Below are positions 23,649 through 57,393 of a DNA stretch of 64,000 nucleotides, in pieces. The DNA comes from a virus (taxonomy: Duplodnaviria; Caudoviricetes). The notes beneath the pieces were generated by a model, which searched no databases, was not told the DNA's origin, and saw only the letters and a list, made by a program, of their open reading frames with translations. Positions within the stretch are counted from its first letter, which is position 1. Every line of letters begins with the position of its first letter. The stretch lies in IMG/VR virus record IMGVR_UViG_3300008259_002957. One strand, given 5' to 3'. Made by a program: the position numbers and the translations under genes.

Positions 23649-24440
23649 ATGATAGAATTTTATAATGACAAACCTCTTTTATTTCGAAGTGAATTAGTTA
23701 ATAAAACACTAAATTGGTATTCTACAGATTCAAAAGACCTGTTTAAACAACAATCTAAAGATTTTAAAAAAAATCATGAACACGAAATTGTTTATAAATT
23801 TAACAGTCTGGGGCATAGAACAAAAGAAATCAGCGACCTAAATCGAGACTTTTTATTAACATTTGGGTGTAGTTATACCGAAGGTGTCGGACTAAACACT
23901 GATAAAATCTGGAATGATCGAGTTTCTAAAGATCTCAAATTAGATTTATACAATTGTGCTTTAGAAGCAAGCGGTATGGATGTGCAATATTATAATGCAA
24001 CATTATGGAAAAACAGTAAACTTCCTATTCCAAAATTGGTTATTGTACAATGGCCTCAAAAAGCTAGAAAACAATTTGGCCTTCACAGACATGACCATAT
24101 TGAATTGCGAGACATGACGTCGCCATCGACCAAAGATGGAGTATGGTGGGGGCGTAGATATCTGCTTGATGTAGGTGAAATGTACTTAAACAACTTTATG
24201 TGGTTTGAAAATTTTAATAATATATGGCAATCCATGAACGTTCCAGTACTAAACTTTACCTGGGACGACGATGATTTAGAAGTTATATTAAAGAGAAGTA
24301 AATATAAAATATGGGCTATCGTACCAGATACGCTTGACAAGGCCAGAGACAACGGACACGACGGTCCGGAATTTCATAGAGGTACAGCAGAACAGTTATT
24401 AGAAATAATGAAATTACCCAACTTCACGTACAAGATCTAA
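23649..24440 (+). CDS. SGNH/GDSL-fold protein
   Basis: LLTFGCSYTEGVG; C-terminal RDNGHDGPEFH. ATG 23649 (AGGT upstream) is preferred over the longer ORF that overlaps the opposite-strand gene. Confidence 0.6.
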   Translation: MIEFYNDKPLLFRSELVNKTLNWYSTDSKDLFKQQSKDFKKNHEHEIVYKFNSLGHRTKEISDLNRDFLLTFGCSYTEGVGLNTDKIWNDRVSKDLKLDLYNCALEASGMDVQYYNATLWKNSKLPIPKLVIVQWPQKARKQFGLHRHDHIELRDMTSPSTKDGVWWGRRYLLDVGEMYLNNFMWFENFNNIWQSMNVPVLNFTWDDDDLEVILKRSKYKIWAIVPDTLDKARDNGHDGPEFHRGTAEQLLEIMKLPNFTYKI

Positions 24441-25394
24441 CGTGCAACAATGGAAACAACCTCCGAGCGTTCTAGCATGACGTAACGGTAGCATAGCACA
24501 TTCTATACCGTGTGCTTCTAATGCTTTGCGTGTGGGTTCTTGATGTTTTTCTAATACTACTAGATTGGGATTTACACTAAACAGATTAACATTCCAAGTC
24601 CAAATACTGCTATTGCACAATCCTGGATAATGACCTACATCAACAGGTTCTGGTGCCCATACGATGTCCCATTTATTAAACGGCGCAGGTAACATATCAC
24701 GATTTTTAATTCTACTGGGATTTGCAAGTAAAAGTCCTTCTCTTAAAAATGCAACAGTGCTATCAATATGCATATAAGAATAAACTTTTTCTAATGTATG
24801 AACTTTAACATCGTTTCCTACAAATTCTTGTAAGTATTTTGCACCTGCTTTATTTCCACTATTACTTACTAAGTAAAGCAACTGGTCGTTTGCACGTATG
24901 ACATTTGCAGCATCAAACTTAGGAGCAATTTCAGTTAATGCAAGTTGATCAGGATCGCCGATGCAATCTTCGTTATACATGTCGTCTTTTTGATAATTTT
25001 CTGCTATTGTAAAATTGTTACCAAGATGTTCAACAATATGTAAAAATTCTTGTTCTCTAGCACGTAAACTCATTGGAGTTGCTAGTGCAGTGTTTTTATA
25101 AACAAACACACTGTCTCTAGGACAATAATTGTAGTATCCTGTTGGAACTCTGTTTGGGCGTTTAACTTCTACCCCTTCGCCTTTTAAAAAATTGACAAAC
25201 GTGTCTAAATCTTCGTTGCTTTCTTCTACAACTTGTTTTGGATAAGGCCTGGATTTTACAGTATCAACAGATTTTTTATCTGCATAATTTACTACCCGTA
25301 AGCTTTTATCCATTGTAGGAATTTGTGCATATTCGGGAACTCCGACAATTACTTTTTTGAGTGGATCCCACTCGTTGGTGCTATAAATACTCAT
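24414..25394 (-). CDS. Amidinotransferase (glycine / scyllo-inosamine-phosphate amidinotransferase family), copy 1
   Basis: NEWDPLKKVIVG; YCPRD; FDAAN; HIDST; GGCFHCCT (catalytic His and Cys present). Confidence 0.9.
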   Translation of the reverse strand: MSIYSTNEWDPLKKVIVGVPEYAQIPTMDKSLRVVNYADKKSVDTVKSRPYPKQVVEESNEDLDTFVNFLKGEGVEVKRPNRVPTGYYNYCPRDSVFVYKNTALATPMSLRAREQEFLHIVEHLGNNFTIAENYQKDDMYNEDCIGDPDQLALTEIAPKFDAANVIRANDQLLYLVSNSGNKAGAKYLQEFVGNDVKVHTLEKVYSYMHIDSTVAFLREGLLLANPSRIKNRDMLPAPFNKWDIVWAPEPVDVGHYPGLCNSSIWTWNVNLFSVNPNLVVLEKHQEPTRKALEAHGIECAMLPLRHARTLGGCFHCCTLDLVREVG

Positions 25395-25404
25395 ACAATA
25401 TTTA
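25382..25404. promoter_or_regulatory. Late promoter pair: TATAAATA (+) and TAAATA (-) 4 nt before ATG 25394
   Basis: + octamer at 25382-25389 upstream of AAGGAG/ATG 25415; the - strand reads TAAATA-TTGT-ATG. Confidence 0.65.
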
Positions 25405-25414
25405 AGGAGTTTTT

Positions 25415-26194
25415 ATGTCTCGTCTTTTCACATTTGGTTGTAGTTTCACACAATATGGTTGGCCAACATGGGCAGATATAATTGCATACGACAAAGATGT
25501 AGAATACTACAATTATGCGATTGCAGGGTTAGGAAATGTTGGTATTGCTCACAGAATTTTAGAGGCAGATCTAAAACACAAATTTCAAGACGGTGACGAA
25601 ATTTTTATTTTATGGTCAAGTTGGAGTAGAGAAGATAGAGTTAAAGATGCGGCATGGATTGGCCGTGGATCGGTATTAACTTATAACAGTCATCATTATG
25701 ATAAATCGTTTCTTAAAAAATATTGGGATTTTGATAACGATGTTGTTAAAAACTCTACTGCTATAATAACAACAAATCGTTTATTTAAAAATTTTATCAC
25801 ATGGCAAGCAAGTGCATTTGAATTTTTTACTACCGAAGGACTCAATTTAACTAAACACAGGAATGGCAATATTATTAATCTTTATAAAAACGAATTACCC
25901 AACTTAACAGTTATTCCTTGTGAAACTAAAAAAAATTCGTTTAAAATAGTACGAGATTCGCATCCTGATGTTTTAGGACATCTAAATTTAGCAACTCGAA
26001 TATACAAAGACTTAGATTTAACAATTAAAGATAAAACAAAAAATACATTTATACGTCTACAGCACGACATAGAAAATTCAATAAAAGAAACTGATAATTT
26101 TCAACAAGTACTTGACAAAATTACTGTCTTAATGAAATTAAATTACAAAAAACTTTTTTCTATAAGAAATTATCCTTCATTGAACGAAGATTGA
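25415..26194 (+). CDS. SGNH/GDSL-fold protein
   Basis: RLFTFGCSFT; NYAIAGLGN; C-terminal RDSHPDVLGH. Confidence 0.6.
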   Translation: MSRLFTFGCSFTQYGWPTWADIIAYDKDVEYYNYAIAGLGNVGIAHRILEADLKHKFQDGDEIFILWSSWSREDRVKDAAWIGRGSVLTYNSHHYDKSFLKKYWDFDNDVVKNSTAIITTNRLFKNFITWQASAFEFFTTEGLNLTKHRNGNIINLYKNELPNLTVIPCETKKNSFKIVRDSHPDVLGHLNLATRIYKDLDLTIKDKTKNTFIRLQHDIENSIKETDNFQQVLDKITVLMKLNYKKLFSIRNYPSLNED

Positions 26195-26764
26195 CATATT
26201 TCTTAAATCAGGATAATCTTGCCAACTCCATGTTTTTGGAATTGTGTTTATTGCTGTATCTAATTTATCTAAGCCTAATTGAGCAGTTTCTGGAGTCATA
26301 TAATAATGATACCCAAAACTGTCGATGTCTTGTTCCGCCCAAGGTAGATCACGAGATCTACCATCATAACTTAGTTTTATTAAATCATGATATGCAGATT
26401 CGTTGTCAGTTAAAATCATTCCACCTCTCCCAAGACTTAAATGTTTTTTAAACTGAAAACTCAAACACATAAACGTATTAGGTATATAACTATTTTGTTT
26501 CCATAATACAGCAGCATCATAAATATTGTCTGATAGTTTATAATAATGTTCCCAAGGATTGTCTTGCCATTGCCACCTAATGTTTAATTTTTTTGCAGTC
26601 ATGGGCACTGATAAATAAGTACGATTTGGAATTGATATATTTTGAATTTTGTTATAAATTAAACACATCTCAATTGCGTGAGTACAGCAATCTGTTGAAA
26701 CAGCAAATTTTGAACCAAAGAATTTTGCAATTTTATTTTCAAATTTATTAATTATATCGAACAT
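26177..26764 (-). CDS. Compact DegT/DnrJ/EryC1/StrS-family PLP aminotransferase
   Basis: FAVSTDCCTHAI; YDAA; LSFQFKKHLSLGRGGMILTD; GYHYYM. Only 195 aa. Confidence 0.8.
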   Translation of the reverse strand: MFDIINKFENKIAKFFGSKFAVSTDCCTHAIEMCLIYNKIQNISIPNRTYLSVPMTAKKLNIRWQWQDNPWEHYYKLSDNIYDAAVLWKQNSYIPNTFMCLSFQFKKHLSLGRGGMILTDNESAYHDLIKLSYDGRSRDLPWAEQDIDSFGYHYYMTPETAQLGLDKLDTAINTIPKTWSWQDYPDLRNMSIFVQ

Positions 26765-26768
26765 AATA

Positions 26769-26776
26769 TATTTATA
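26769..26776 (-). promoter_or_regulatory. Late promoter TATAAATA 4 nt before ATG 26764
   Basis: The - strand reads TATAAATA-TATT-ATG. Confidence 0.7.
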
Positions 26777-26787
26777 GAAAGGTTTAT

Positions 26788-27831
26788 ATGTCTAAAACAT
26801 TTTATCATTTTGTCTGGGGCGAGTTTGGATTAGAAAACATAGTAAATGAACTTGAAAAAGATAACTCATATACAGACATTGTAATTTTTGGTCCTGAAGA
26901 ACACGAAATAGGATTTGCATTTCACGACACAGAATTTGTAATGTTTAAAAGATTTCTAGATTATCATAATGTTAACTTAAAAATGATTTTAGGTGCACCG
27001 ACTAACAGTATTTTAAATTACAGATACCAATTTAAAGATTTTAAAAATTTAAATCCATGGCATACGTTTTTTGCAAATTTTGTAATTCAACATATTTTAT
27101 ATCTTAAAGCATCCCCTTATGGACATAATAATGTAATTAATAAACATTTTACTTCAATGAATGGAAGAGCTCATCCGTGGAGATGCATGTTTATTGATTA
27201 TATGTACAAGTACAATTTGTTTGATAAAGGTTATATAAGTTGGCATAATTCTGAGAATTGGCAATACCCATACGATTTTAAATGGTGGGCACCTAAAAAA
27301 TTAAATTTTGATAAAAACTGGGTCAACCCATCTAATGGTTTTTATGACATGTATACAGTACCGATTGAATTTAAAGATAGTCTGTTTAGTATTATCTCAG
27401 AATCAAACTTACAAACTATTTTTGTAACAGAAAAAACTTATCTACCAATATATCATAAACGGCCGTTTATTATATTTGGCGCTCCTTATATACATCAATA
27501 TTTAAAATCTTTAGGATTTATGTTGTTCGATGAAATTATAGACTATTCCTTTGACTCAGTAGACGACGACGAAAAAAGATGTGATATGCTTATGAAAGAA
27601 GTTGCAAAACTTTGTAATACTAATATAGAAAAACTTAGAAAAAAATCAATTACAAAGGTTGAACATAACTTTAATAATTTACTAAAAATTGTAGAAAATA
27701 AAAAGTTAATACCAAAGGAAGTAAGACGTACAATTGAAAATGGCACTCACGAAAGATTTGATCTTTATAGAAATGTGTTAAATATCAGTAATACAAAAGA
27801 TTTTTTAAATTTAATCAATAAGGACACATAA
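26788..27831 (+). CDS. GT10-like glycosyltransferase-like protein, copy 2
   Basis: SLFSIISES...FVTEKT...KRPFIIFG...GF.LFDEIIDYSFD. Confidence 0.55.
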   Translation: MSKTFYHFVWGEFGLENIVNELEKDNSYTDIVIFGPEEHEIGFAFHDTEFVMFKRFLDYHNVNLKMILGAPTNSILNYRYQFKDFKNLNPWHTFFANFVIQHILYLKASPYGHNNVINKHFTSMNGRAHPWRCMFIDYMYKYNLFDKGYISWHNSENWQYPYDFKWWAPKKLNFDKNWVNPSNGFYDMYTVPIEFKDSLFSIISESNLQTIFVTEKTYLPIYHKRPFIIFGAPYIHQYLKSLGFMLFDEIIDYSFDSVDDDEKRCDMLMKEVAKLCNTNIEKLRKKSITKVEHNFNNLLKIVENKKLIPKEVRRTIENGTHERFDLYRNVLNISNTKDFLNLINKDT

Positions 27832-27835
27832 CAAT

Positions 27836-27880
27836 ATGAAAATATTTTTAACAGGTGCAAGCGGATTTATTGGTCAATAA
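27836..27880 (+). pseudogene. 14-codon duplicate of the epimerase 5' end (MKIFLTGASGFIGQ*)
   Basis: 38/42 nt identical to 29025-29066; preceded by AAGGA; its stop is 2 nt before ATG 27883. Confidence 0.85.
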
Positions 27881-27882
27881 TA

Positions 27883-28959
27883 ATGACAAAAAAATATCTA
27901 GTAGGATCTGACTATTATTATTTTGCTTGGGGACCCGAAGAAAAAGAAGATTTGATGTGTGCGGTTAATTCGATACCAGAAATAAAGAGAATTGTTTTTT
28001 TTGGTCCTGAAGAACATGAATTTGCTAATTTTTTTACTAATCTAGGTCAATACAAAGACCTTGCAACAGAATTAAAAAGATTAAACAAAGAACATATTAT
28101 TCTAACATCAGCTGTAGAAGATTCTAGATTAAATTCATTATGGCCATACAAAAATCAAAAAAATTTTGTTTTTTGGGATTCTTATTTTGCGTATCAAGTG
28201 CTACAGTACTACATGGAAAGAAACATAAAACCTTTTGAACACAACGAAAAAATCGATAAACATTTTATTTCATTGAACGCTAGAGCACACAATTGGAGAT
28301 GTATGTTTGTTGATACTATGTACAAGGAAGGACTATTTAATCACGGTTATGTAAGTTGGCACAACGCTGACAATTGGGACTACTCGTATAAGTTCAAATA
28401 CTGGAAACCTAAGATTATCAATTTTGATGAAAATTGGATTAATAGTACAGACGGAATTCTGGATATAATGCTACCTCCGGAGAAACAATTTAAATCAAGT
28501 TTGTTTAGTGTTATTTCTGAATCAAGCGATCAAATTCTAAAAACAACAGAAAAGATTTATATTCCAATTTATCACAAAAGACCATTTATAGTTTATGCTG
28601 CTCAATATTTTTATAAATTTTTACAAACACAGGGATTTGTACTGTTTGATGAAATATTTGATTATTCTTTTGATAATATTCCAAATGATGAGTATAATGA
28701 CGGGAAAGAACGATGCGAAGCAATGATGTATGAAACTAAAAAAATATTAAATTATGATCCTAACGATTTATATAAAATACTAAAACCAAAGATTGATCAC
28801 AACTACAAAGCATTATACAAATTAGTTAAACGCCAATCAGTTAGCGACTCAGTAAAATTACTAATTGAAAATGCTAATCTAGTGAAAAAGGATTTTAATT
28901 ATTTTACAACGTTTAATTTAAAAGACAATGATAAATTTAAAGAATTTTCAAAGAGATAA
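27883..28959 (+). CDS. GT10-like glycosyltransferase-like protein, copy 3 (close paralog of 26788..27831)
   Basis: Shares FGPEEHE, KHF.S.N.RAH.WRCMF.D.MYK and GY.SWHN with the preceding gene; TTEKI..PIYHKRPF. Confidence 0.55.
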   Translation: MTKKYLVGSDYYYFAWGPEEKEDLMCAVNSIPEIKRIVFFGPEEHEFANFFTNLGQYKDLATELKRLNKEHIILTSAVEDSRLNSLWPYKNQKNFVFWDSYFAYQVLQYYMERNIKPFEHNEKIDKHFISLNARAHNWRCMFVDTMYKEGLFNHGYVSWHNADNWDYSYKFKYWKPKIINFDENWINSTDGILDIMLPPEKQFKSSLFSVISESSDQILKTTEKIYIPIYHKRPFIVYAAQYFYKFLQTQGFVLFDEIFDYSFDNIPNDEYNDGKERCEAMMYETKKILNYDPNDLYKILKPKIDHNYKALYKLVKRQSVSDSVKLLIENANLVKKDFNYFTTFNLKDNDKFKEFSKR

Positions 28960-29024: not shown

Positions 29025-29936
29025 ATGAAAATATTACTTACAGGTGCAAGCGGATTTATTGGTCAGCATCTTTTACCACGTTTAGAAAAATTAGGCGTAG
29101 TTCATGCTTTAACAAGTGATTTAACGGATCACAACTCAGTAAAAGAAGAAATAAAATCTGTAGCACCGGACATTGTTGTTCACCTTGCAGCAAGAACTGA
29201 AGTACAAAAAAGTTTTTATGAGCAAGTCAGTTTTAGCGAAGTAAACTACGTAGGAACTGTAAACTTAATTGAATCTTGCAGACAACTAGATCCGATGCCC
29301 TATTTTGTATTTGCTAGTACAATGGAAGTATATGGATGGCAACCTATATCAGATGAAGTAGAACGCACAGGAACATATGTTAAAAGTGTAGCATTTGACG
29401 AAAATACAATTCCGCATCCAAACGCTCCTTATGCAGTTGCAAAACTTGGATGTGAAAAGTATTTAGAATACGCAGAACGTGCCTATGGGTTACGTTGGAC
29501 TGCTATGCGTCAAACTAACTGCTATGGCAGAAAAGACAACGACTTCTTTGTCACTGAGCAAATTATCAGTCAAATGATCAAAGGTGACGTTTGTAATTTA
29601 GGTTATGCAGAGCCTTATAGAAACTTTATTTACATTGACGACTTGTTAAATGCTTGGATGACTCTAATTGAAAGTCCGGAATATTGCTCAGGACATTTGT
29701 TTACAATTGGCCCAGACGAACCACGCAAGATTAAAGATTGTGCCAATTATATTGCTGAAAAACTAAAATGGTCGGGACAAATTAATTGGAATACCAAAGA
29801 TCCTAGACATGGAGAAATTTGGTGGCTCAACAGTAATCATAACAAGTTAACTCAACTTACCAGTTGGGTACCAAAAGTTTCCTATGAAGAAGGTATTGAT
29901 AGAACAATACATCATTGGAAAAATATTTTAAAATAA
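29025..29936 (+). CDS. NAD-dependent NDP-sugar epimerase/dehydratase (extended SDR)
   Basis: TGASGFIG; VVHLAA; FASTMEVYG; YAVAK (YxxxK); RNFIYIDD. Confidence 0.9.
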   Translation: MKILLTGASGFIGQHLLPRLEKLGVVHALTSDLTDHNSVKEEIKSVAPDIVVHLAARTEVQKSFYEQVSFSEVNYVGTVNLIESCRQLDPMPYFVFASTMEVYGWQPISDEVERTGTYVKSVAFDENTIPHPNAPYAVAKLGCEKYLEYAERAYGLRWTAMRQTNCYGRKDNDFFVTEQIISQMIKGDVCNLGYAEPYRNFIYIDDLLNAWMTLIESPEYCSGHLFTIGPDEPRKIKDCANYIAEKLKWSGQINWNTKDPRHGEIWWLNSNHNKLTQLTSWVPKVSYEEGIDRTIHHWKNILK

Positions 29937-31063
29937 TGTATTTTACAAATATTCCACTTTATGAAAATCCAGAAATTTTTGGACTAACTCATAATAACTT
30001 GAATATTTGGAAAAATCAAAATATTGGAAAATATTTTTATAGAGTTAAATATAAAAATTTAAAATCAATTGATTATATTCCTGAAAAAATAATCAATTTA
30101 GCAAAAAAAAATAAAAATTTTTATATATTCTTAGACGACACGTTAGAAGGATATGCATATTTAAATTTTAATAAAGTATATGAATTTGTTTTTTCTAATA
30201 AGTTAGAAAAAAAAGTTATCTACGTTAGCGGCCATTTGGAATCAGAAAACGAATATAAAGCGTGGTTAAAAAATAAAAACAAAAATTCTGTTTTCTATGT
30301 TTGTTCAAATAACAACTGGTTTTGGAGCACACGTAGTTGGACTATAGATTCTAAGATCAAAATAGATATTGATAAAATACAATGGTATAATTGTCTAAAC
30401 AATCGTCCTAGAGAACATAGACTAGCAACAGTAACATACTTAGATTATCTAAATTTATTAGACAATGGATATGTATCGGCTAACGATAGATCTTACGAAG
30501 TGTTGGATAACTTTGAATTTAAAGATATACTTTTTACTCCAATTAGCAAATATAAAAAAGAATATGCTGAAATTTTAATTAATCATGCTGATAAAGTTCG
30601 ACCAAAACTTCCGTTAATTGTTGACGCTACTGATTTGGCAAACAAATGTCTTTTTCATGATCTATCTCCTAAAATTTATAATAATGCATTGATAAATCTT
30701 GTTACTGAAACATTTTATTTTACTAGTTACAATATAAAGTCTGAAATGTTTATAACAGAAAAAACCTGGAAAGTCTTTACAGCAAAACAAATACCTGTTA
30801 TAATAGGACCAAGAGGTATCCTTGAAAGACTTAGAAAATACGGGTTTGATGTGTTTGACGACTTGATCGATAATTCGTACGATAACGAATCAGATTCAAC
30901 AAGATTATTTTCGGCAATAAATTCTATGAATAAAATTATAAGCAAATACACAATTGATGAATTTTCTGAAATAACAAAAAGAAGAAGACTTAAAAATTAT
31001 AAAATTATAATGAAAGGTTTGCCACTTGATCTCCCTATATGGAAAGTTTTAGATGAAAGTTGA
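29936..31063 (+). CDS. GT10-like glycosyltransferase-like protein, copy 4
   Basis: LINLVTET...FITEKTWK...PVIIG...GFDVFDDLIDNSYD; start coupled through TAATG at 29934-29938. Confidence 0.55.
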   Translation: MYFTNIPLYENPEIFGLTHNNLNIWKNQNIGKYFYRVKYKNLKSIDYIPEKIINLAKKNKNFYIFLDDTLEGYAYLNFNKVYEFVFSNKLEKKVIYVSGHLESENEYKAWLKNKNKNSVFYVCSNNNWFWSTRSWTIDSKIKIDIDKIQWYNCLNNRPREHRLATVTYLDYLNLLDNGYVSANDRSYEVLDNFEFKDILFTPISKYKKEYAEILINHADKVRPKLPLIVDATDLANKCLFHDLSPKIYNNALINLVTETFYFTSYNIKSEMFITEKTWKVFTAKQIPVIIGPRGILERLRKYGFDVFDDLIDNSYDNESDSTRLFSAINSMNKIISKYTIDEFSEITKRRRLKNYKIIMKGLPLDLPIWKVLDES

Positions 31064-49440: not shown

Positions 49441-49931
49441 TTTATCGAGGTAATTTTGCAAACTGGATCAATCCTACGTGGAGAGAACTTGTCCTAAACA
49501 CAGTAGGACAAGCAAGACCCAGAGATTGGCCTCCGGAAACTGCCGTTGAAAGTGCTGAATATTGCAAGGCTCGAGATGCAGGATACGATTTAACAGCAAC
49601 GCACTGGTGGGTATACGAAGAACACGATTTAAATATTAAAATAAGTCCGCCTTGGTGTACTGGAAAAACTGAATGGTGGATCACAAAGTTAATGCCTGGT
49701 CAATTTATGCCGATGCACACAGACCCATTTACACATTATGAAACTTGTAAACGATATTGGGTGCCATTACAAGACTATCAACCCGGGCATTTGTTTGTAT
49801 ACGGAAATTTAGTATTAACAAAGTATTCTGCTGGCGACGTATATGAATACATTAACAGTCAAGATATTCATGGCGCCGCCAATATAGGACATATGCCAAG
49901 AGTAGTGTTGCAGGTCACTGAATATGAGTAA
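49437..49931 (+). CDS. Fe(II)/2OG oxygenase-fold protein (related to 44104 and 44670)
   Basis: LMPGQFMPMHTD...IHGAANIG..PRVVLQV. Confidence 0.8.
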   Translation: MIYRGNFANWINPTWRELVLNTVGQARPRDWPPETAVESAEYCKARDAGYDLTATHWWVYEEHDLNIKISPPWCTGKTEWWITKLMPGQFMPMHTDPFTHYETCKRYWVPLQDYQPGHLFVYGNLVLTKYSAGDVYEYINSQDIHGAANIGHMPRVVLQVTEYE

Positions 49932-52054: not shown

Positions 52055-52104
52055 TATTTAGTAGTATCACAATTGAGTAACTATGTTTTTGTTTGCAGTA
52101 AATA
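52055..52104. promoter_or_regulatory. Back-to-back TAAATA pair
   Basis: - strand: TAAATA-TTACA-ATG (52049); + strand: TAAATA at 52099-52104, upstream of AGGAG/ATG 52131. Confidence 0.65.
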
Positions 52105-52130
52105 TTAGAAATAATACCACAGGAGATAAA

Positions 52131-53201
52131 ATGAAAGTATCAAAAATTCCCGGTTTAGGTTCATATGGACATTATATTGACGACTTAGACTTTGATAATA
52201 TCACAGATGAAGAATGGGCAGAAATTGGAAAATTTCATTTAACTGATTTAGTAACTATTCTAAGAAACGTTAAAATTACTAAAGATCAGTACTATAACAG
52301 AATTCGGCAATGGGGTCCTTTTATCGGTGCAACAATGTCTCGCAAGCACTTTCAAAAAAAATACGGTCAAGATTTTGATGGTAGAATTCAAGAACATTAC
52401 AAAAAATTTAATGTATCATCAGAAGACGAACGTTATATTAAAATGAAACAGTTTTATATTGAACATACTGAACATGGTAATACATTAACACGAGTTTGTG
52501 GCAAAAGAGATGAATACGGTAACCCAATGGGCAACTTTTCATCTGGCGAGTTATATTGGCACAGTAACGAATCGTCTGTAATTAACTTTACTCCCGGAGT
52601 TGCATTGATGGGCGGAGAGTATATGGTAGGTAGTTCTACAGGATTTCTACAAACTGCTGATTATTATCAGTCAATCTCTGAAAGTTTTAGAAGCGAACTT
52701 AACGAAATGATTTTAGTTCACGCATACATTCCTGGAGGGATTAATGAACTCGAAAAAGATGATCCAAGTTTTGGAGAAAACATAAGAAAAGAATTTGCAC
52801 CAGTTGACGGGGCTGAAGTACCCTTGGTAATTACAAGTCCGGGCGGAATCAAAGGACTGCATTATACACTTAATTCTGTTGTTGGAATTAAAGGTATGAG
52901 TAAATATGATAGCGATAAAGTTTTTGCAGAAATTGACCGAGAATTGTTAACTGAAAAATATATTTACGATCACATGTACTTACAAGACAATGAGATTTGT
53001 TTATTTGATAATTCGATAACATTACATAGAAGAAAGCATCCTGGAAATCCGAACAGACTTGCATTTAGATTGCAATATTATCCTGATAGTTTAATAAAAC
53101 AATCGTGGCATCCATATCATCAACAGCATTTTTACAACTATCATCAAGATGAAATGCTAGAGTTGATGAATATCCTAGAGTTAGATTTAAAATTTCCATA
53201 A
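52131..53201 (+). CDS. TauD/TfdA-family dioxygenase
   Basis: LYWHSNE; GSSTGF; HPxV-like PLVI; FDNSITLHRR. ATG 52131 has AGGAG upstream. Confidence 0.8.
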   Translation: MKVSKIPGLGSYGHYIDDLDFDNITDEEWAEIGKFHLTDLVTILRNVKITKDQYYNRIRQWGPFIGATMSRKHFQKKYGQDFDGRIQEHYKKFNVSSEDERYIKMKQFYIEHTEHGNTLTRVCGKRDEYGNPMGNFSSGELYWHSNESSVINFTPGVALMGGEYMVGSSTGFLQTADYYQSISESFRSELNEMILVHAYIPGGINELEKDDPSFGENIRKEFAPVDGAEVPLVITSPGGIKGLHYTLNSVVGIKGMSKYDSDKVFAEIDRELLTEKYIYDHMYLQDNEICLFDNSITLHRRKHPGNPNRLAFRLQYYPDSLIKQSWHPYHQQHFYNYHQDEMLELMNILELDLKFP

Positions 53202-53208
53202 TTTTAAA

Positions 53209-54351
53209 ATGTCTGATATAAAAACAAAGTTAATCAACATCGAATGGTTATTTGTTGATCAAGATCATTACGATTTGATAATGATCGAAATTGATCAAGC
53301 AGTGCGAGAAAAATGCAACGTAATTATTTTTCTTGCACTGATGGACGGATTTGTGGCGTGGGATCCTAAATATTGGATCCCACTGATTGACAAACTCGAC
53401 AATGCTTGTAAAAAATTAGGTATACAAGAGATAATTTTTATATCTGGTGCTGGAAAAACATATGAGTATGGTTTAAAACACACACACTACTTTTATGACT
53501 GGAATATGAGTGTTGTAAAAAATGCATACAAAGATTATGATAATCAAATCAAAGATTATAATAACGATGCTGACAAGTTTTTATTTTTAACAGGTCGTTC
53601 TGCTCGTCCAAATCGTATTGGACTAATGAGTAAATTTTACGACGAAAATATGTTAAAAAATAGCACTTGGTCATTTTTTCCTCCTTGGAACGAAATAGAT
53701 AACAAATGGTGCCGAAACTATTTGTCAAAATATACAGATAAAGAATATAACGAGTTTTTAAAAAACTGTAATAGATCTTTAGATAGCGATAACGAATACA
53801 ACTCTTGTAAAAGTTTTTTAGGAGTTTACGAAGGCGACAACTGGCACGATATTGTAAAAGAACCCTACATACACAATCCGTCATTTATAGATTTGCATCA
53901 CTATAACGATGTAAAGTTAACAGTAATAAGTGAAGGGCCGATATACTGGGAATGGAGTAACGACCGGTATTATCTTACTGATAAAACTTATAGAGAATTA
54001 TTAATGAAGAAGCCAGTAATTTTATCGGGCTATGTAGAACAATACAAAGAATTGAAAAATCTAGGATTTAAGACATTTGACGAGAATTTCTTAATCAAAG
54101 AGTACGGTTTAATCGAAGATGAAGAACAGCGTCTTGAAGCAATAGTACAAAATGTAAAATATTTTTTAAACAACAGCGATTATCAAAAAGTCAAACAAGA
54201 CGTTGACTTTAATACAAAGTTATTGTATTATTATTTTAAAAAGCAAGATGAATTTTTAAAGTATTTAGAAACAAAGTACAATGCTAGTAAAGAAGAAATT
54301 GAGTTTTTCTTTAATCGTAAAGGTCTTGAGCACCTAATAAGAAAACCCTAA
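53209..54351 (+). CDS. GT10-like glycosyltransferase-like protein, copy 5
   Basis: FLFLTGR..RPNR; LTVISEG...LTDKTY...KPVIL.G...GFKTFD. Confidence 0.5.
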   Translation: MSDIKTKLINIEWLFVDQDHYDLIMIEIDQAVREKCNVIIFLALMDGFVAWDPKYWIPLIDKLDNACKKLGIQEIIFISGAGKTYEYGLKHTHYFYDWNMSVVKNAYKDYDNQIKDYNNDADKFLFLTGRSARPNRIGLMSKFYDENMLKNSTWSFFPPWNEIDNKWCRNYLSKYTDKEYNEFLKNCNRSLDSDNEYNSCKSFLGVYEGDNWHDIVKEPYIHNPSFIDLHHYNDVKLTVISEGPIYWEWSNDRYYLTDKTYRELLMKKPVILSGYVEQYKELKNLGFKTFDENFLIKEYGLIEDEEQRLEAIVQNVKYFLNNSDYQKVKQDVDFNTKLLYYYFKKQDEFLKYLETKYNASKEEIEFFFNRKGLEHLIRKP

Positions 54352-55448
54352 TGTTTTATCAAAAAATTACTCAACTCGAACTTGAACTTACAACAAGATG
54401 CAACGCATCTTGTCCTCAGTGTGTACGTAATTTTTACGGTGGAAAAACATGGCCAACATTGCCCATGGTCGACATTGACTTGGAATTAATTAAAACAAAA
54501 ATACCAGATTCAATTTTAAAAGACTTGATAGAAATTCGTATTTGCGGAACTTATGGTGATCCCTGTATCTATCAAGATTTGATAGAGTTAGTCAAATATT
54601 TAAATTCAAAAACTTCTGCACAACTTACTATTAATACAAACGGTAGTTTACGTACAACAAAATGGTGGAAAGATCTTGCTAACGTTTTAAAAAAAGATGA
54701 TAGAGTTATTTTCGGAATAGATGGTTTAGATGACACAAACCATTTGTATAGAGTTAACACAAACTTTAAAAAAATAATCAATAATGCAAAAGCATTTATA
54801 TCTGCTGGCGGATCAGCAATATGGAGTTACATTGTTTTTAAACACAACGAACATCAAGTAGATGCTGCAAGACAATTAAGCAACAAACTCGGATTTGATG
54901 GGTTTTCTTGTAAGTTGACAACTAGATTTATCGATAAACAACATAATCTAGTTGATAAAACTCCAGTGTTTGACAAAAATAATAATCTTAATAGATATTT
55001 AGAAATGCCTGATGAAAAGAAATATCTAAACAATGGCTATAATAACTACGAAAAAATTATAAAAGAGTTCGGATCTTATGAAAACTATTTGCAAAAATCT
55101 AAAATATTTTGTACTGCACAACACAGTAATTTAATTTATATTTCAGCCGAAGGGTACGTTTTGCCTTGCGGATGGCTTGCTGATAGATTTTATGGGTTTG
55201 AAACCGAAAAGCACAAAGATAGAAAAAAATTATTTGAGTTGATTGACCTAAACGGCGGTCTAAACACTATTAGTTTGCATCATTTTTCATTGGACGAAAT
55301 TGCAAACAGTAAAGTGTTTCACGCTATACAACAAAACTGGATTAGCGAAAATAGAATAGAGCGTTGTGCAAATCAATGTAGTAAATACGGTATGCTTAAA
55401 CAAAATGCTACAAAAGAATTACAACCTTATGTAAAAGGAAATGTATAA
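54351..55448 (+). CDS. Radical SAM protein (type C)
   Basis: LELTTRCNASCPQC; CGTYGDP; IYISAEG..LPC...CANQC. Confidence 0.9.
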   Translation: MFYQKITQLELELTTRCNASCPQCVRNFYGGKTWPTLPMVDIDLELIKTKIPDSILKDLIEIRICGTYGDPCIYQDLIELVKYLNSKTSAQLTINTNGSLRTTKWWKDLANVLKKDDRVIFGIDGLDDTNHLYRVNTNFKKIINNAKAFISAGGSAIWSYIVFKHNEHQVDAARQLSNKLGFDGFSCKLTTRFIDKQHNLVDKTPVFDKNNNLNRYLEMPDEKKYLNNGYNNYEKIIKEFGSYENYLQKSKIFCTAQHSNLIYISAEGYVLPCGWLADRFYGFETEKHKDRKKLFELIDLNGGLNTISLHHFSLDEIANSKVFHAIQQNWISENRIERCANQCSKYGMLKQNATKELQPYVKGNV

Positions 55449-56354
55449 ATGCACAATATTTTTAAAAATTCTTATGCTATACAAGATCCTGAAATAGTAG
55501 ACTTTATAAAACACATTGATTTTTCAGAAGCATTATGGGATAATAGTGTTACTAAAAATTTTTGTAATGCTTACAAAAATTGGATTTTAAGTTCTGCCGA
55601 CAATAATTTTATAGGTTTAAATAACTTCACATATGCAATTTATAGCAACGGTGCGTCTCAAGCGTTTGATATGTTTTATATTAAAAATAAAAATAGACGT
55701 TTTAGATGTTTTAAGGGCGAATATGTTTATCACAAACTAGCCTGGAGAAATAATTGGAACGACTGGACATTTATAGAGGATTCACCTTTAGAATTTAATG
55801 ATGCAGTAGTAATTAGTTTACCGTTTAGTGACACCGGAAACAAGCATGTTGAGATGGACAGTGTTTTAGAGATATGCGATCGATTACAGATTCCAGTGTT
55901 AATTGATTGTATATATTTTGGAATTTGTAATAATATAAATTTTGATTTATCTTTTAATTGTATTACTGATGTTGTTTTTAGTTTAAGTAAAACATTTCCT
56001 GTTGCAAATGCAAGAATTGGAATAAGATTTACAAAAACAGATGACGACGACCTTATGTTTGTATATGATAAGATGAATTACAATAACAGACTTGGTTCTC
56101 ACTTAGGATTAAATCTTTTACAAAACTTTTCACCAGATTTTGTATACAATAAATATAAAAGTAAACAACTCGAGTGTTGTAGTGTTTTAAATATTACGCC
56201 AAGTAATACAGTTTTATTTGGCGTAGACAACTTTAAAAAATACAATCAATATAACAGAGGCACTAATACCAATAGACTAAGTCTTCAAGACTTGCTAATT
56301 TTAAACAATTTACAAATGAAAGAGATATTATATGCCAATTCAAACAAACAATGA
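55449..56354 (+). CDS. Fold-type I PLP-dependent enzyme (class I/II aminotransferase-like)
   Basis: SNGASQAF; VLIDCIY; FSLSKTFPVANARIG (Lys in the SxSK motif). Confidence 0.75.
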   Translation: MHNIFKNSYAIQDPEIVDFIKHIDFSEALWDNSVTKNFCNAYKNWILSSADNNFIGLNNFTYAIYSNGASQAFDMFYIKNKNRRFRCFKGEYVYHKLAWRNNWNDWTFIEDSPLEFNDAVVISLPFSDTGNKHVEMDSVLEICDRLQIPVLIDCIYFGICNNINFDLSFNCITDVVFSLSKTFPVANARIGIRFTKTDDDDLMFVYDKMNYNNRLGSHLGLNLLQNFSPDFVYNKYKSKQLECCSVLNITPSNTVLFGVDNFKKYNQYNRGTNTNRLSLQDLLILNNLQMKEILYANSNKQ

Positions 56355-57393
56355 TTGGGATCCTTTAGAAGAGATTGTAGTTGGTATAGCCGATCATGCA
56401 ATGCTTCCAACTCTTGATAAAAGTACTCATAGTTTTTCTTATGCAGCAAACACATATGACGAAATTAAACATCTTAACGGAATTTTACACAATCAACAAG
56501 TCATTGACGAAGCAAATGAAGACTTAGATGGATTGTCAGATACTTTAAAAAGTTTAGGTGTTAATGTATTAAGACCTGATGTAATTGATCATAGACAAAA
56601 ATTTAGTACGCCCGATTGGGAAACTACAGGGTGGCATACTTATTGTCCCAGAGACTTGTTGTTACCTTTGGACAACATGATTATCGAGTGTCCTAGTCCT
56701 ATGCGGTCTCGATACTTTGAAACTCGTGCATATTACAATCATTTATATAAATGGATGAAGGAAGGTTCGCAATGGATCTGTGCTCCAAAGCCGATACTAT
56801 TAGATGAAAGTTATCAACTAGATGATATAAAAGAAGCAACCTTACTAAATCACGAAATTGTATTTGATGCACCAAATATCGTTAGATTAGGAAGAGATTT
56901 ACTTTGCCAAGTAAGCAACAGTGGAAATCAACTTGGGTTTGAATGGCTAAAAACTATTCTCGAACCAAAAGGATACAGATTTCATATTGCAGAAAAGTAT
57001 TATAGTTTTTCGCATTTTGACAGCACAGTAATTCCTCTTCGTCCTGGATTGGTTTTGTTCAACGGTGACAGATTAAATGAAGACTGGTACCCGCCTATTT
57101 TTAAAAGTTGGGATAAGATTTTTTGGCCTGGCGAAAAAATTGGTAAAATACCTACAAATTTATCAAACGGTATCTCACCGTGCTCACCTTATATTGGACT
57201 AAACTTGTTAAGTGTAAATCCTGAACTCATTATTGTAGATGAAAATCAACAAGAACTGATGAAAGAATTAGACAAAACATGGGGAATTGAAAGTATTGGT
57301 TTGCCAATGAGACAAGCAAGAACATTAAGCGGTGGCTTTCATTGTGTTACATTAGATACAAAACGTAAAGGAACACTAGAGGACTATTTTTAA
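56332..57393 (+). CDS. Amidinotransferase, copy 2
   Basis: NDWDPLEEIVVG; YCPRD; FDAPN; HFDST; GGFHCVT. Confidence 0.9.
   Translation: MPIQTNNDWDPLEEIVVGIADHAMLPTLDKSTHSFSYAANTYDEIKHLNGILHNQQVIDEANEDLDGLSDTLKSLGVNVLRPDVIDHRQKFSTPDWETTGWHTYCPRDLLLPLDNMIIECPSPMRSRYFETRAYYNHLYKWMKEGSQWICAPKPILLDESYQLDDIKEATLLNHEIVFDAPNIVRLGRDLLCQVSNSGNQLGFEWLKTILEPKGYRFHIAEKYYSFSHFDSTVIPLRPGLVLFNGDRLNEDWYPPIFKSWDKIFWPGEKIGKIPTNLSNGISPCSPYIGLNLLSVNPELIIVDENQQELMKELDKTWGIESIGLPMRQARTLSGGFHCVTLDTKRKGTLEDYF

What the first reader, a model, noticed from the sequence alone, without database searches (positions are those of the whole stretch)
24414..57393. Two aminotransferase + amidinotransferase modules: streptidine-like guanidino chemistry in a phage
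Seen: amidinotransferase 24414 lies within 0.8 kb of DegT-like 26177; amidinotransferase 56332 is directly coupled to PLP enzyme 55449 and to B12 radical SAM 57393. Both keep CPRD, H.D and GG.(F)HC. Established: streptidine biosynthesis runs oxidation, transamination (StsC/StsA, DegT family), phosphorylation and amidino transfer (StrB1) twice. Inference: keto-to-amino-to-guanidino conversion at two positions or on two sugars, with the two SDRs or twitch radical SAMs as oxidases. Alternatives are guanidinoacetate/homoarginine synthesis or amidination of protein amines.
Basis: partly seen in the sequence, partly recalled or inferred. Interest (0 to 1): 0.8.

Follow-up and report, generated by a model that had tools for sequence, protein, structure and literature searches.

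The report
Phage amidinotransferase–aminotransferase sugar-tailoring cassettes
A giant freshwater T4-like phage carries two genuine arginine-dependent amidinotransferases, each tied to its own vitamin-B6 enzyme inside a sugar-building gene island, and the same pairs recur in hundreds of aquatic phages, so these phages probably make guanidino-decorated sugars, a product nobody has yet detected.

Summary
ORF 24414-25394(-) and ORF 56332-57393(+) are full-length members of the AGAT/StrB1 amidinotransferase family. StrB1 (1bwd) matches at E 1e-64 and 2e-86, and the Cys-His-Asp triad and arginine-binding residues are intact.

Each has a PLP partner, but of two different kinds. ORF 26177-26764 is a 195-aa "mini-DegT": only the PLP domain of a C4 sugar aminotransferase, with the lysine kept. 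ORF 55449-56354 is a compact class-I (HisC/AspAT-like) aminotransferase fold, not a DegT.

Both pairings are strongly conserved. The class-I partner occurs in 79 of 80 AmT-2 loci and the mini-DegT in 77 of 80 AmT-1 loci from IMG/VR. The cultured cyanophage S-SCSM2R also carries the AmT-1 pair.

The neighbours are GT10-like transferases, an NDP-sugar SDR, UDP-sugar dehydrogenases, SGNH-like proteins, small cupins and many radical SAM enzymes.

Two complete relatives and S-SCSM2R encode no cyclitol synthase. I therefore read the island as nucleotide-sugar or glycan guanidinylation, not streptidine synthesis (confidence about 0.5).

Substrate, product and target are inferred, not shown. An earlier first-stage note on this genome had already flagged module 1. 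The genes have been noticed in phage papers, but their function is untested.

The parts
21514..22281 (+). DUF6071 (SGNH-like) protein, conserved flank of module 1
   Evidence: Pfam DUF6071 1.3e-10. Its homolog sits in the same position in AmT-1 loci L092-L117.
22250..23599 (-). GT10-like putative glycosyltransferase (paralog 1 of 5)
   Evidence: Paralogous to 26788 and 27883. Present next to AmT-1 in 38 of 80 loci. ATAAATA box 38 nt upstream.
23655..24440 (+). Conserved protein of about 260 aa, function unknown. The listed TTG start at 23421 is probably too early.
   Evidence: Homologs of 251-275 aa flank AmT-1 in window-like loci L092-L117, with one longer call of 342 aa in L106. No Pfam, PHROG or NCBIfam hit.
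24414..25394 (-). AmT-1: StrB1-like L-arginine amidinotransferase (326 aa). Predicted catalytic residues D161/H209/C316; arginine-binding D94, D211, R218.
   Evidence: phmmer against PDB: StrB1 1e-64, HsvA 8e-37, AGAT 2e-33. These residues are invariant across 15 homologs. 66% identical to S-SCSM2R ORF309.
25415..26194 (+). SGNH/DUF6071-like esterase or acyltransferase
   Evidence: Atlas features 0.93-0.96 to viral DUF6071/Lipase_GDSL clusters. GCSFT motif at the N-terminus. Conserved between the mini-DegT and AmT-1. ATAAATA box 32 nt upstream.
26177..26764 (-). Mini-DegT: 195-aa PLP-domain-only relative of NDP-sugar C4 aminotransferases. K107 is the predicted Schiff-base lysine; D83 is also kept.
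   Evidence: Pfam DegT 5e-15, matching profile positions of about 21-85 and 163-239 only. AF2 pLDDT 93.6. Foldseek top hits are GDP-perosamine synthase, ArnB, AtS13/CalS13 and PglE, TMq 0.67-0.76. K107 and D83 are invariant in 21 homologs. 51.5% identical to S-SCSM2R ORF305, of the same length.
26788..28959 (+). Two tandem GT10-like putative glycosyltransferases (26788-27831 and 27883-28959)
   Evidence: 41% identical to each other and related to 22250, 29915 and 53209. The 26788 type is conserved in 37 of 80 AmT-1 loci.
29025..29936 (+). Extended SDR of the NDP-sugar epimerase/dehydratase/reductase class (motifs STMEVYG and YAVAK)
   Evidence: Pfam Epimerase 1.6e-39 and GDP_Man_Dehyd 1.6e-36. 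PDB hits: GalE 3e-28, GDP-6-deoxy-mannose reductase, RmlB and UXS. Motifs read from the translation.
29915..31063 (+). GT10-like putative glycosyltransferase
   Evidence: Weak Pfam Glyco_transf_10 C-terminal hit, 3.7e-4. Paralog of 26788 and 53209.
49437..49931 (+). Small cupin (Asp/Arg-hydroxylase-like) of the family that usually sits beside phage amidinotransferases
   Evidence: Matches S-SCSM2R ORF308 and the L003 164-aa protein. The same family includes the L003_197, L003_168 and L007_160 proteins. Atlas 0.94-0.95 to Asp_Arg_Hydrox/cupin clusters.
52083..53201 (+). TauD/TfdA-family Fe(II)/2OG dioxygenase, first gene of the module 2 run
   Evidence: Pfam TauD 1.4e-14.
53209..54351 (+). GT10-like putative glycosyltransferase of module 2
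   Evidence: Atlas features 0.79-0.80 to GT10 clusters, a lead only. 31% identical to the 395-aa protein downstream of AmT-2 in L003.
54351..55448 (+). Radical SAM enzyme with a C-terminal SPASM/twitch-like domain; candidate oxidant (inferred)
   Evidence: Pfam Radical_SAM 1.6e-11 and SPASM 1.7e-3. NCBIfam N_Twi_rSAM 6e-11, below its cut-off. No close solved relative. Related to rSAM genes beside the CP220 amidinotransferase.
55449..56354 (+). Compact class-I/II-fold PLP enzyme (301 aa), the fixed partner of AmT-2. K181 is the predicted PLP lysine.
   Evidence: AF2 pLDDT 91.4. Foldseek: AspAT 2gb3 7e-12, also HisC, CobD and DapL. Invariant SxSK, D153 and R189. Found in 79 of 80 AmT-2 loci, within 100 bp in 67.
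56332..57393 (+). AmT-2: StrB1-like L-arginine amidinotransferase (353 aa). Triad D179/H228/C338.
   Evidence: phmmer against PDB: StrB1 1.6e-86, SxtG 4e-61, HsvA 3e-60, AGAT 1e-56. D179 and H228 align with StrB1 D179 and H227. 366 IMG/VR contigs encode relatives.
57393..59240 (+). Cobalamin-dependent radical SAM C-methyltransferase (TokK/KedN5/CysS type)
   Evidence: PDB TokK 1e-66 and CysS 2e-37. NCBIfam KedN5 subfamily 1e-60, 206 bits, below the 700-bit cut-off.

Best explanation
Both amidinotransferases are tailoring enzymes of phage-encoded carbohydrate pathways.

Module 1 (about 21.5-31.1 kb). The extended SDR makes a keto nucleotide-sugar. The 195-aa mini-DegT aminates it, most likely at C4. 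AmT-1 takes the amidino group of L-arginine onto Cys316, releases ornithine and passes the group to the sugar amine, giving a guanidino sugar. The four GT10-like enzymes install the sugar, and the SGNH-like proteins acylate or de-acylate it.

Module 2 (about 49.4-59.2 kb). The same logic applies with different parts. A hydroxylase and/or a radical SAM enzyme prepares a carbonyl. The class-I PLP enzyme makes the amine, either on a sugar or on a small phosphorylated amino-alcohol-type substituent. AmT-2 converts it to a guanidine. The B12 radical SAM enzyme C-methylates, and a GT10-like enzyme transfers.

The acceptor of the finished glycan is unknown: virion fibre proteins or the host envelope.

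Shown: family membership, intact catalytic and cofactor residues, and conserved gene pairing and context.

Inferred: substrates, order of steps, product and target.
For: The triad and arginine-binding residues are intact, and StrB1 is the best match.

The mini-DegT fold matches C4 NDP-sugar aminotransferases, with the lysine kept. The partner of AmT-2 is a complete class-I PLP fold with AAT-like spacing of Asp, Ser-x-Ser-Lys and Arg.

The pairings are conserved: 79/80 and 77/80 loci, the cultured phage S-SCSM2R and MAG contigs.

The carbohydrate context recurs independently:
- S-SCSM2R has five glycosyltransferase genes around ORF305-310.
- UDPGDH and/or SDR lie beside AmT-2 relatives (L003, L007, L012, L015, L041, L090).
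- UDPGDH, or UDPGDH plus SDR, lies beside AmT-1 relatives (L121, L129, L135, L146).
- A third paralog in the 343-kb relative G001 sits in SDR + full-length DegT + two GT10-like genes + AmT, and a fourth sits behind GT10-like + UDPGDH + cupin.

No cyclitol synthase is present in complete relatives.

T4-late-type ATAAATA boxes precede 7 of 61 genes against 0.6% of random 70-mers. They include module 1 genes and fibre-like genes. In S-SCSM2R, another amidinotransferase paralog was detected in purified virions (PMC12801897).
Against: No enzyme here has been assayed, and no natural guanidino sugar in a glycan is known to me. A literature search for 'guanidino sugar' found nothing.

The mini-DegT lacks about 80 internal profile positions and the whole C-terminal domain, so it may not be a normal aminotransferase. 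The partner of AmT-2 belongs to the amino-acid/HisC class, not the sugar class. The GT10 assignment is weak. No nucleotidyltransferase or clear 4,6-dehydratase signature was shown.

The 16 radical SAM genes, many with SPASM domains, are as typical of peptide maturation as of sugar chemistry.
Confidence: 0.5

Rival explanations
1. The island makes a free, diffusible guanidino natural product, an aminoglycoside- or aminocyclitol-like antibiotic or signalling compound, rather than a conjugated glycan. This is the 'antibiotic synthesis genes' reading of the S-SCSM2R paper and the strict streptidine reading.
For: StrB1 is the best match of both enzymes. The enzyme classes are those of aminoglycoside pathways: DegT, radical SAM, a B12 methylase, glycosyltransferases, and a TobZ/NodU-type carbamoyltransferase beside AmT-2 in marine relatives. 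PMC12801897 proposes this reading.
Against: No DHQS-like or inositol-phosphate synthase is present in two complete relatives or in S-SCSM2R. No kinase, exporter or resistance gene was recognised. The genes sit next to fibre genes and behind late-type promoter boxes. Five paralogous transferases suggest polymer or glycoconjugate assembly.
Confidence: 0.13
2. The amidinotransferases act on protein or peptide amines, for example Lys to homoarginine, Orn to Arg, or an amine made from an oxidised Ser. They would be part of a RiPP-like hypermodification of a phage structural protein by the many radical SAM/SPASM enzymes and hydroxylases.
For: The window has 16 radical SAM genes, most with SPASM-type domains, plus Asp/Arg-hydroxylase-like, TauD and 2OG enzymes and a B12 C-methylase. 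The island follows giant fibre genes. Campylobacter phages carry a cluster of five rSAM genes plus an amidinotransferase.
Against: No AGAT-family enzyme is known to act on proteins. The genes most tightly and repeatedly linked to the amidinotransferases are sugar-type: mini or full DegT, NDP-sugar SDR, UDPGDH and GT-like genes. No precursor-peptide-like gene was identified.
Confidence: 0.12
3. Module 2 amidinates a small phosphorylated amino alcohol or diamine (serinol-P, ethanolamine-P or a similar compound) made by the HisC/CobD-like PLP enzyme. That compound is then hung on a uronic acid or phosphate of a glycan. This is a sub-variant of the glycan reading, with a non-sugar acceptor.
For: The nearest folds to the PLP partner include HisC and CobD, which work on phosphorylated substrates. 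UDP-sugar dehydrogenase lies directly beside AmT-2 in several relatives. From my own knowledge, StrB1 itself uses a phosphorylated amine.
Against: No amide ligase or phosphotransferase was recognised nearby. The fold matches do not discriminate among class-I enzymes (TM 0.6-0.7 to many).
Confidence: 0.1
4. The genes are ordinary auxiliary metabolic genes of amino-acid metabolism (guanidinoacetate/creatine, homoarginine or arginine-ornithine balance), as KEGG-based virome surveys file them (K00613).
For: Automatic annotations call relatives 'glycine amidinotransferase'. An ocean AMG survey discusses viral creatine-pathway genes.
Against: Both enzymes score far better against StrB1 than against AGAT (294 vs 195 bits and 222 vs 119 bits). 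The fixed pairing with PLP enzymes, transferases and rSAM genes in 79/80 and 77/80 loci is not expected for a stand-alone AMG. No guanidinoacetate methyltransferase was seen in the window.
Confidence: 0.06
5. The cassettes hypermodify phage DNA or nucleotides, giving an aminated and then guanidinylated sugar or side chain on a base.
For: In L007-type relatives the AmT-2 pair lies among nucleotide-metabolism genes (RNR, PhoH, dUTPase). T4-like phages are known to glycosylate DNA. There is a weak QueC-like hit at 42044-42739.
Against: No base-hydroxymethylase, DNA kinase, DpdA or DNA glycosyltransferase family was recognised next to either module. Five GT paralogs and SGNH-like genes fit glycan assembly better.
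Confidence: 0.04

Closest known systems
StrB1, L-arginine:inosamine-phosphate amidinotransferase of Streptomyces griseus (PDB 1bwd)
   Same: Best sequence match of both phage enzymes, aligned over the whole length with almost no gaps for AmT-2. The Cys-His-Asp triad and CPRD / HxD / PLRPG residues are the same.
   Different: The phage genomes and their complete relatives have no cyclitol synthase. The context is glycosyltransferases and NDP-sugar enzymes, not an actinomycete aminoglycoside cluster. AmT-1 is 22 residues shorter, with two loop deletions before CPRD.
Streptidine logic: StsC (DegT-family aminotransferase) followed by StrB1
   Same: A PLP aminotransferase gene is genetically coupled to an amidinotransferase gene, in two copies in one genome.
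   Different: Partner 1 is a 195-aa single-domain DegT relic. Partner 2 is a class-I (HisC/AspAT-like) fold. No kinase or phosphatase steps were recognised. The likely substrate is a nucleotide sugar or glycan substituent.
Ugd-ArnA-ArnB route to UDP-L-Ara4N, and perosamine/viosamine-type routes (dehydrogenase or SDR, then C4 DegT aminotransferase)
   Same: ArnB and GDP-perosamine synthase are top structural matches of the mini-DegT. UDPGDH + SDR + mini-DegT stand together beside AmT-1 relatives L129 and L146. SDR + full DegT stand beside a G001 paralog.
   Different: These known routes end with N-formylation, N-acetylation or a free amine. No known route ends with amidino transfer.
Radical-SAM + 'glycine amidinotransferase' module of Campylobacter phages CP220/CPt10 (Timms et al. 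2010, PMC2853527)
   Same: A T4-like phage, several radical SAM genes, one AGAT-family gene and nucleotide-sugar transferase-like genes in one cluster. Its rSAM genes are related to window ORFs 54351 and 37020.
   Different: Only 25-29% identity. No homolog of either PLP partner is detectable there. Its function is equally unknown.
Synechococcus phage S-SCSM2R ORF305-ORF310 (PMC12801897)
   Same: Orthologs of AmT-1 (66% identity) and the mini-DegT (51.5% identity, same 195 aa), with the small cupin and glycosyltransferases alongside.
   Different: All genes there are on one strand, and there is no AmT-2/class-I PLP pair. The paper labels them antibiotic-synthesis genes without experiments.

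Membership tests
AGAT/StrB1 amidinotransferases (pentein superfamily) | Full-length sequence homology to solved members | tested here: met
   AmT-1: StrB1 1e-64, HsvA 8e-37, AGAT 2e-33, SxtG 1e-31. AmT-2: StrB1 2e-86, SxtG 4e-61, HsvA 3e-60, AGAT 1e-56. Coverage is about 98%.
AGAT/StrB1 amidinotransferases (pentein superfamily) | Catalytic Cys-His-Asp triad, plus the Asp/Asp/Arg residues that hold the arginine donor | tested here: met
   AmT-2 D179/H228/C338 align with StrB1 D179, H227 and the GGFHC cysteine. AmT-1 has D161/H209/C316. These residues are invariant, or in at least 90% of rows (AmT-2 D179), in alignments A1 and A3, as are D94/D108, D211/D230 and R218/R237. Assignment of the triad rests on the published StrB1 and AGAT structures, recalled from my own knowledge.
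AGAT/StrB1 amidinotransferases (pentein superfamily) | Arginine-dependent amidino transfer with ornithine release | not testable with these tools
   Needs an enzyme assay.
Streptidine-type inosamine-phosphate pathway | A cyclitol source (inositol-phosphate synthase or a DHQS-like cyclase) in the same genome | tested here: not met
   PF01761 and PF07994 are absent from G000, G001 (99% complete), G002 (100% complete), G003 and S-SCSM2R, while the control genomes gave hits.
Streptidine-type inosamine-phosphate pathway | Phosphotransferase and phosphatase steps around the amidino transfer | tested here: inconclusive
   No kinase family hit among the 61 window ORFs scanned, but about 25 ORFs have no assignment at all.
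DegT/DnrJ/EryC1 sugar aminotransferases | Pfam PF01041 above its cut-off, with the PLP lysine and the pyridine-N aspartate | tested here: met
   56 bits against a cut-off of 19.8. K107 aligns with position 188 of ColD. K107 and D83 are invariant in 21 homologs.
DegT/DnrJ/EryC1 sugar aminotransferases | Two-domain architecture of about 360-400 residues | tested here: not met
   The protein is 195 aa. Only profile positions of about 21-85 and 163-239 are matched, in all five genomes checked. The model covers only the large domain of its targets (TMt 0.35-0.41). It should therefore be called DegT-derived, not a standard DegT.
Class I/II (fold-type I) aminotransferases | Fold and PLP-binding residues (Asp, Tyr, Ser-x-Ser-Lys, Arg eight residues after the Lys) | tested here: met
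   Foldseek probability 1.00 to AspAT, HisC, CobD and DapL over residues 4-295. D153, S178, S180, K181 and R189 are invariant in 34 sequences.
Class I/II (fold-type I) aminotransferases | Recognition by the curated sequence model (Pfam Aminotran_1_2) | tested here: not met
   No Pfam hit at E 0.01. The best sequence hints are AspAT 2gb3 at E 0.22 and an NCBIfam valine-pyruvate transaminase at 19 bits. It is a very divergent, shortened member.
GT10-like glycosyltransferases | Sequence or fold match to GT10 | tested here: inconclusive
   One paralog hits the Glyco_transf_10 C-terminal domain at 3.7e-4, below the cut-off. Atlas feature scores of 0.79-0.80 are leads only. No structure was compared.
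Cobalamin-dependent radical SAM C-methyltransferases (TokK/KedN5/CysS) | B12-binding domain plus radical SAM core, homologous to solved members | tested here: met
   TokK 1e-66 over residues 23-469 and CysS 2e-37. The KedN5 subfamily model scores 206 bits, below its 700-bit cut-off, so the protein is not a member of that subfamily.

The most novel reading that the evidence does not exclude
Aquatic T4-like phages, including cultured cyanophages, synthesise guanidino-substituted sugars by arginine-dependent amidination of amino sugars. They build these sugars into a cationic glycan on their own fibres or on the host surface. This would be a type of glycan modification not described in any organism. 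It would use a previously unrecognised minimal single-domain DegT aminotransferase and a family of phage-specific StrB1-like enzymes that has expanded to as many as four paralogs per genome.
Probability: 0.35. Interest if true: 0.8.

Novelty: new variant of a known kind. Interest (0 to 1): 0.6.

Why it matters
Virome surveys currently file these genes as glycine amidinotransferase or creatine metabolism, and one phage paper calls them antibiotic genes. The conserved pairing with PLP enzymes, sugar-nucleotide enzymes and transferases points instead to a dedicated tailoring step in phage-made glycans. That step is present in hundreds of freshwater and marine phage genomes.

If the product is a guanidino sugar, it is new glycochemistry, with obvious consequences for adsorption, host range and recognition of phage particles.

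The 195-aa mini-DegT would also define the smallest working unit of a large enzyme family.

A cultured phage, S-SCSM2R, carries module 1, so the idea can be tested directly.

Tried and rejected
- DNA-level search of module 2 against 50,697 phage records found no match.
- A single-sequence locus search in IMG/VR found nothing, so an alignment was needed.
- PHROGs gave nothing useful for ten unassigned neighbours.
- NCBIfam has no model for the amidinotransferases.
- Radical SAM 54351 has no close solved relative. BtrN and anSME did not appear, so the 'radical SAM dehydrogenase' idea stays a guess.
- TauD 52083 gave only weak, uninformative PDB hits.
- Neither PLP partner has a detectable homolog in Campylobacter phage CP220.
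- The exact T4 late box TATAAATA occurs only 4 times, against 11.8 expected. The 7-mer ATAAATA proved to be the informative form.
- The genome-contig scan returned only 7 loci. Four complete matches at 55-63% identity lie on contigs filed under cellular genomes or MAGs, and three of them carry the same phage-type P0003 + AmT-2 pair. The two clear cellular relatives (37-38% identity) lie in high-GC DNA whose ORF calls were too noisy to analyse in the time left.
- A phylogeny against StrB1, AGAT, CyrA, SxtG, AmtA and HsvA was not run. No tool returns those reference sequences as files, and I did not type them. Bit scores against the PDB entries were used instead.
- Sequencing runs: no RNA holder was listed, so there is no expression evidence either way.
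- Considered and rejected as main readings: strict streptidine/cyclitol synthesis, a stand-alone amino-acid AMG, and DNA hypermodification (see rivals).

Full report
WHAT THE WINDOW IS

The window lies on a 113-kb IMG/VR virus record that CheckV rates 32% complete. The record encodes a T4 gp23-type major capsid protein (E 2e-102). The first 15 kb of the window hold fibre-like genes: the C-terminal part of a 2,960-aa protein, a tail-collar-domain protein and their paralogs. The same DNA is found in lake, freshwater and estuary metagenomes from 13 studies. "In a phage" is therefore correct: this is a large freshwater T4-like phage. From about 16.7 kb onward the window is one large island of enzyme genes.

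THE OBSERVATION

Both amidinotransferase calls are right.

- ORF 24414-25394(-), here AmT-1 (326 aa), matches the solved inosamine-phosphate amidinotransferase StrB1 at E 1e-64. It also matches HsvA, AGAT and SxtG, over about 98% of its length.
- ORF 56332-57393(+), here AmT-2 (353 aa), matches StrB1 at E 2e-86, and the same other enzymes over about 98% of its length.
- The two are 36% identical to each other.
They correspond to the catalytic Asp-His-Cys triad and the arginine-binding residues. AmT-2 D179 and H228 align with StrB1 D179 and H227, and the cysteine sits in GGFHC. These residues are invariant or near-invariant in the alignments of each family.
- Neither protein is caught by Pfam or NCBIfam. 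This explains the weak or misleading automatic names on relatives, such as "N-dimethylarginine dimethylaminohydrolase" and "glycine amidinotransferase".

THE TWO PLP PARTNERS ARE REAL BUT DIFFER IN KIND

Partner 1, ORF 26177-26764(-), passes the Pfam DegT cut-off but is only 195 aa. It matches profile positions of about 21-85 and 163-239 of 360, and the same truncated pattern is found in five genomes.

- With 21 homologs it folds with pLDDT 93.6.
- Its best structural matches are the large PLP domains of C4 sugar aminotransferases: GDP-perosamine synthase, ArnB, AtS13/CalS13, PglE and DesI.
- Lys107 aligns with the Schiff-base position. Lys107 and Asp83 are invariant.
- It is 51.5% identical to a protein of exactly the same length in a cultured cyanophage.
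- It is thus a conserved "mini-DegT" and not a gene fragment.

Partner 2, ORF 55449-56354(+), has no Pfam hit.

- With 34 homologs it folds with pLDDT 91.4.
- The fold is a complete, compact class-I/II aminotransferase. It matches AspAT, HisC, CobD and DapL at probability 1.00 over residues 4-295.
- D153, S178-x-S180-K181 and R189 are invariant, with the spacing of aspartate aminotransferase.

IS THE LINKAGE MORE THAN CHANCE?

Yes.

- A profile of AmT-2 finds 366 IMG/VR contigs. In the 80 best loci, the class-I PLP gene is present in 79. The 80th locus, L019, has only a 91-aa piece of it at its first ORF. The gene lies within 100 bp of AmT-2 in 67 loci, across 18 clusters at 90% identity.
- A profile of AmT-1 finds 260 contigs. 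The mini-DegT is present in 77 of the 80 best loci, within 3 kb in 74, across 27 clusters.
- The cultured Synechococcus phage S-SCSM2R has orthologs of AmT-1 (66% identity) and the mini-DegT in a run with glycosyltransferases, a radical SAM gene and a small cupin.
- Contigs binned into bacterial MAGs carry the same AmT-2 pair.

CONTEXT

Around AmT-1 in the window lie four GT10-like paralogs: 22250, 26788, 27883 and 29915. There are SGNH/DUF6071-like genes at 21514 and 25415. There is also an extended SDR of the NDP-sugar class at 29025, with motifs STMEVYG and YAVAK. This order is kept in the closest relatives.

AmT-2 sits in a translationally coupled run:

1. TauD-like dioxygenase
2. GT10-like enzyme
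3. radical SAM/SPASM enzyme
4. class-I PLP enzyme
5. AmT-2
6. B12 radical SAM C-methylase of the TokK/KedN5 type

In relatives, UDP-sugar dehydrogenase and an NDP-sugar SDR follow AmT-2 directly, or the dehydrogenase precedes it. Some relatives have a full-length DegT 2-3 kb away.

The 343-kb, 99%-complete relative G001 carries four amidinotransferase paralogs. One follows SDR + full-length DegT + two GT10-like genes. Another follows GT10-like + UDPGDH + small cupin.

The small cupin is Asp/Arg-hydroxylase-like by language-model features. It is one family that recurs beside AmT-1, AmT-2 and the G001 paralog. The window copy is 49437-49931.

The recurring cassette is therefore: amidinotransferase + a PLP aminotransferase (one of three kinds) + GT10-like transferase + small cupin, with or without UDPGDH or SDR, and with or without radical SAM enzymes.

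WHAT IT IS NOT

A streptidine-type route needs a cyclitol. No DHQS-like cyclase and no inositol-phosphate synthase is present in this record, in G001 (99% complete), in G002 (100% complete, a psbA-carrying cyanophage), in G003 or in S-SCSM2R. The control genomes gave hits in the same searches. No kinase was recognised in the window.

A stand-alone amino-acid AMG does not explain the fixed partners. Both enzymes also score much higher against StrB1 than against AGAT: 294 vs 195 bits and 222 vs 119 bits.

MOST LIKELY MECHANISM (confidence about 0.5)

The steps below are inferred from family chemistry.

- Module 1: the SDR generates a keto nucleotide-sugar. In relatives with UDPGDH this may resemble the Ugd/ArnA/ArnB route. 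The mini-DegT transaminates it, probably at C4. AmT-1 runs the ping-pong reaction of its family: arginine amidinates Cys316, ornithine leaves, and the amidino group passes to the sugar amine to give a guanidino sugar. The GT10-like enzymes then transfer it, and the SGNH-like proteins tailor O-acyl groups.
- Module 2: the same amine-to-guanidine logic with a class-I PLP enzyme. The nearest folds of that enzyme (HisC, CobD) handle phosphorylated substrates. The acceptor could therefore be a sugar or a small amino-alcohol-phosphate-type substituent. The B12 enzyme would add C-methyl groups.

What is shown: family membership, intact catalytic and cofactor residues, conserved linkage, and a carbohydrate context repeated in four paralogous cassettes.

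What is inferred: the substrates, the order of steps, the product and the target.

TIMING AND TARGET

The T4-late-type heptamer ATAAATA is strongly avoided in the window: it occurs in 0.6% of random 70-mers. Yet it lies within 70 nt upstream of 7 of 61 genes. These include fibre-like genes (5201, 11146) and module 1 genes (22250, 25415, 26177). The shorter TAAATA also precedes AmT-1 and the SDR.

In S-SCSM2R another amidinotransferase paralog (ORF266, next to KdsA/KdsB) was detected in purified virions (PMC12801897).

This leans towards late expression and a virion- or surface-related glycan. It is circumstantial, and several of the boxes lie only 10-12 nt from the start codon, which is too close for a normal promoter.

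COMPARISON WITH WHAT IS KNOWN

- Campylobacter phages CP220 and CPt10 were noted in 2010 to carry an "interchangeable module" of five radical SAM genes plus a putative glycine amidinotransferase (PMC2853527).
- In CP220 that module also holds two nucleotide-sugar-transferase-like genes. Its radical SAM genes are related to window ORFs 54351 and 37020. Neither PLP partner is detectable there.
- The S-SCSM2R paper lists the AmT-1 and mini-DegT orthologs as "antibiotic synthesis genes" without experiments.
- Virome surveys file such genes under glycine/creatine metabolism.

The genes have therefore been noticed. The following appear not to have been described, as far as my searches reached: the two conserved PLP-amidinotransferase pairs, the mini-DegT, the class-I partner, the carbohydrate reading, and how widespread the families are (366 and 260 viral contigs).

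An earlier first-stage note on this same genome had flagged module 1 as a possible guanidino-sugar route. My tests agree with it.

VERDICT

The enzymes are members of known families in a new, conserved arrangement, so I rate this a new variant of a known kind. The predicted product would be new chemistry if confirmed. Interest is 0.6.

Noticed in passing
window 16719-63998: The window holds 16 radical SAM genes, in four paralog groups. Six have a SPASM-like Cys-rich domain at the N-terminus, before the radical SAM core (16719, 18094, 19313, 31655, 40792, 49924); this order is unusual. Six are short (20589, 33046, 34013, 38045, 39085, 51069). Three have a C-terminal SPASM/twitch domain (37020, 54351, 63498). 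One is B12-dependent (57393).
   Followed up: partly
window 45211-46086 (+): A single ORF fuses an N-terminal cold-shock DNA/RNA-binding domain (CSD, 4.7e-10) to a 2OG-Fe(II) oxygenase domain (6.8e-10). It could be a nucleic-acid-directed oxygenase.
   Followed up: no
window 24414-26790: AmT-1, the SGNH-like gene, the mini-DegT and the next GT-like gene alternate in strand. The divergent gaps are only about 20 nt, and one pair overlaps convergently (26177-26194). Any promoters must therefore lie inside the neighbouring coding sequences. The alternating pattern is kept in relatives L092-L117, whereas S-SCSM2R-type phages have all these genes on one strand.
   Followed up: partly
whole window: ATAAATA is depleted in the window: 0.6% of random 70-mers contain it, and TATAAATA occurs 4 times against 11.8 expected. 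It is enriched within 70 nt upstream of starts (7 of 61 genes). Two distance classes appear, about 26-38 nt and about 11-15 nt. The short class is too close for a normal T4-type late promoter and is unexplained.
   Followed up: partly
G001:C1:55837-56751, 62036-62980, 134813-135862, 228924-229946: A 343-kb, 99%-complete relative carries four amidinotransferase paralogs. S-SCSM2R, G002 and G004 carry two each. The family has expanded in large aquatic phages.
   Followed up: partly
L042:4101-5891 (and L043, L048, L057, L059, L076): Marine relatives place a NodU/TobZ-type O-carbamoyltransferase (Carbam_trans_C, 1e-58) and a 2OG oxygenase directly upstream of the cupin + PLP + AmT-2 run. Carbamoyl and guanidino tailoring may therefore be combined.
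   Followed up: no
window 42044-42739 (-): A weak match covers only the C-terminal, zinc-binding part of QueC (E 2e-4, below the cut-off). This may be another ATP-pyrophosphatase-type enzyme in the island.
   Followed up: no
window 5824-11116 and 11146-13141: Three consecutive fibre-like proteins share their first 200-330 residues or so (33-40% identity) and then diverge. One carries a phage tail-collar domain. Two further paralogs follow (11146, 12113). This looks like a cassette of alternative receptor-binding tips directly upstream of the enzyme island.
   Followed up: no
window 63798-64000: The last 203 bases of the window are real sequence, but they lie beyond the end of the IMG/VR contig held as G000. 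The exact AmT-2 protein is on record on a 297-kb contig, so a longer assembly of this phage exists.
   Followed up: no
Atlas structural neighbours of window 53209-54351: In other phages the GT10-like fold occurs fused to an NDP-sugar epimerase/dehydratase domain (705 aa) or to a methyltransferase domain (571 aa). This supports a sugar-related role for the paralog family.
   Followed up: no
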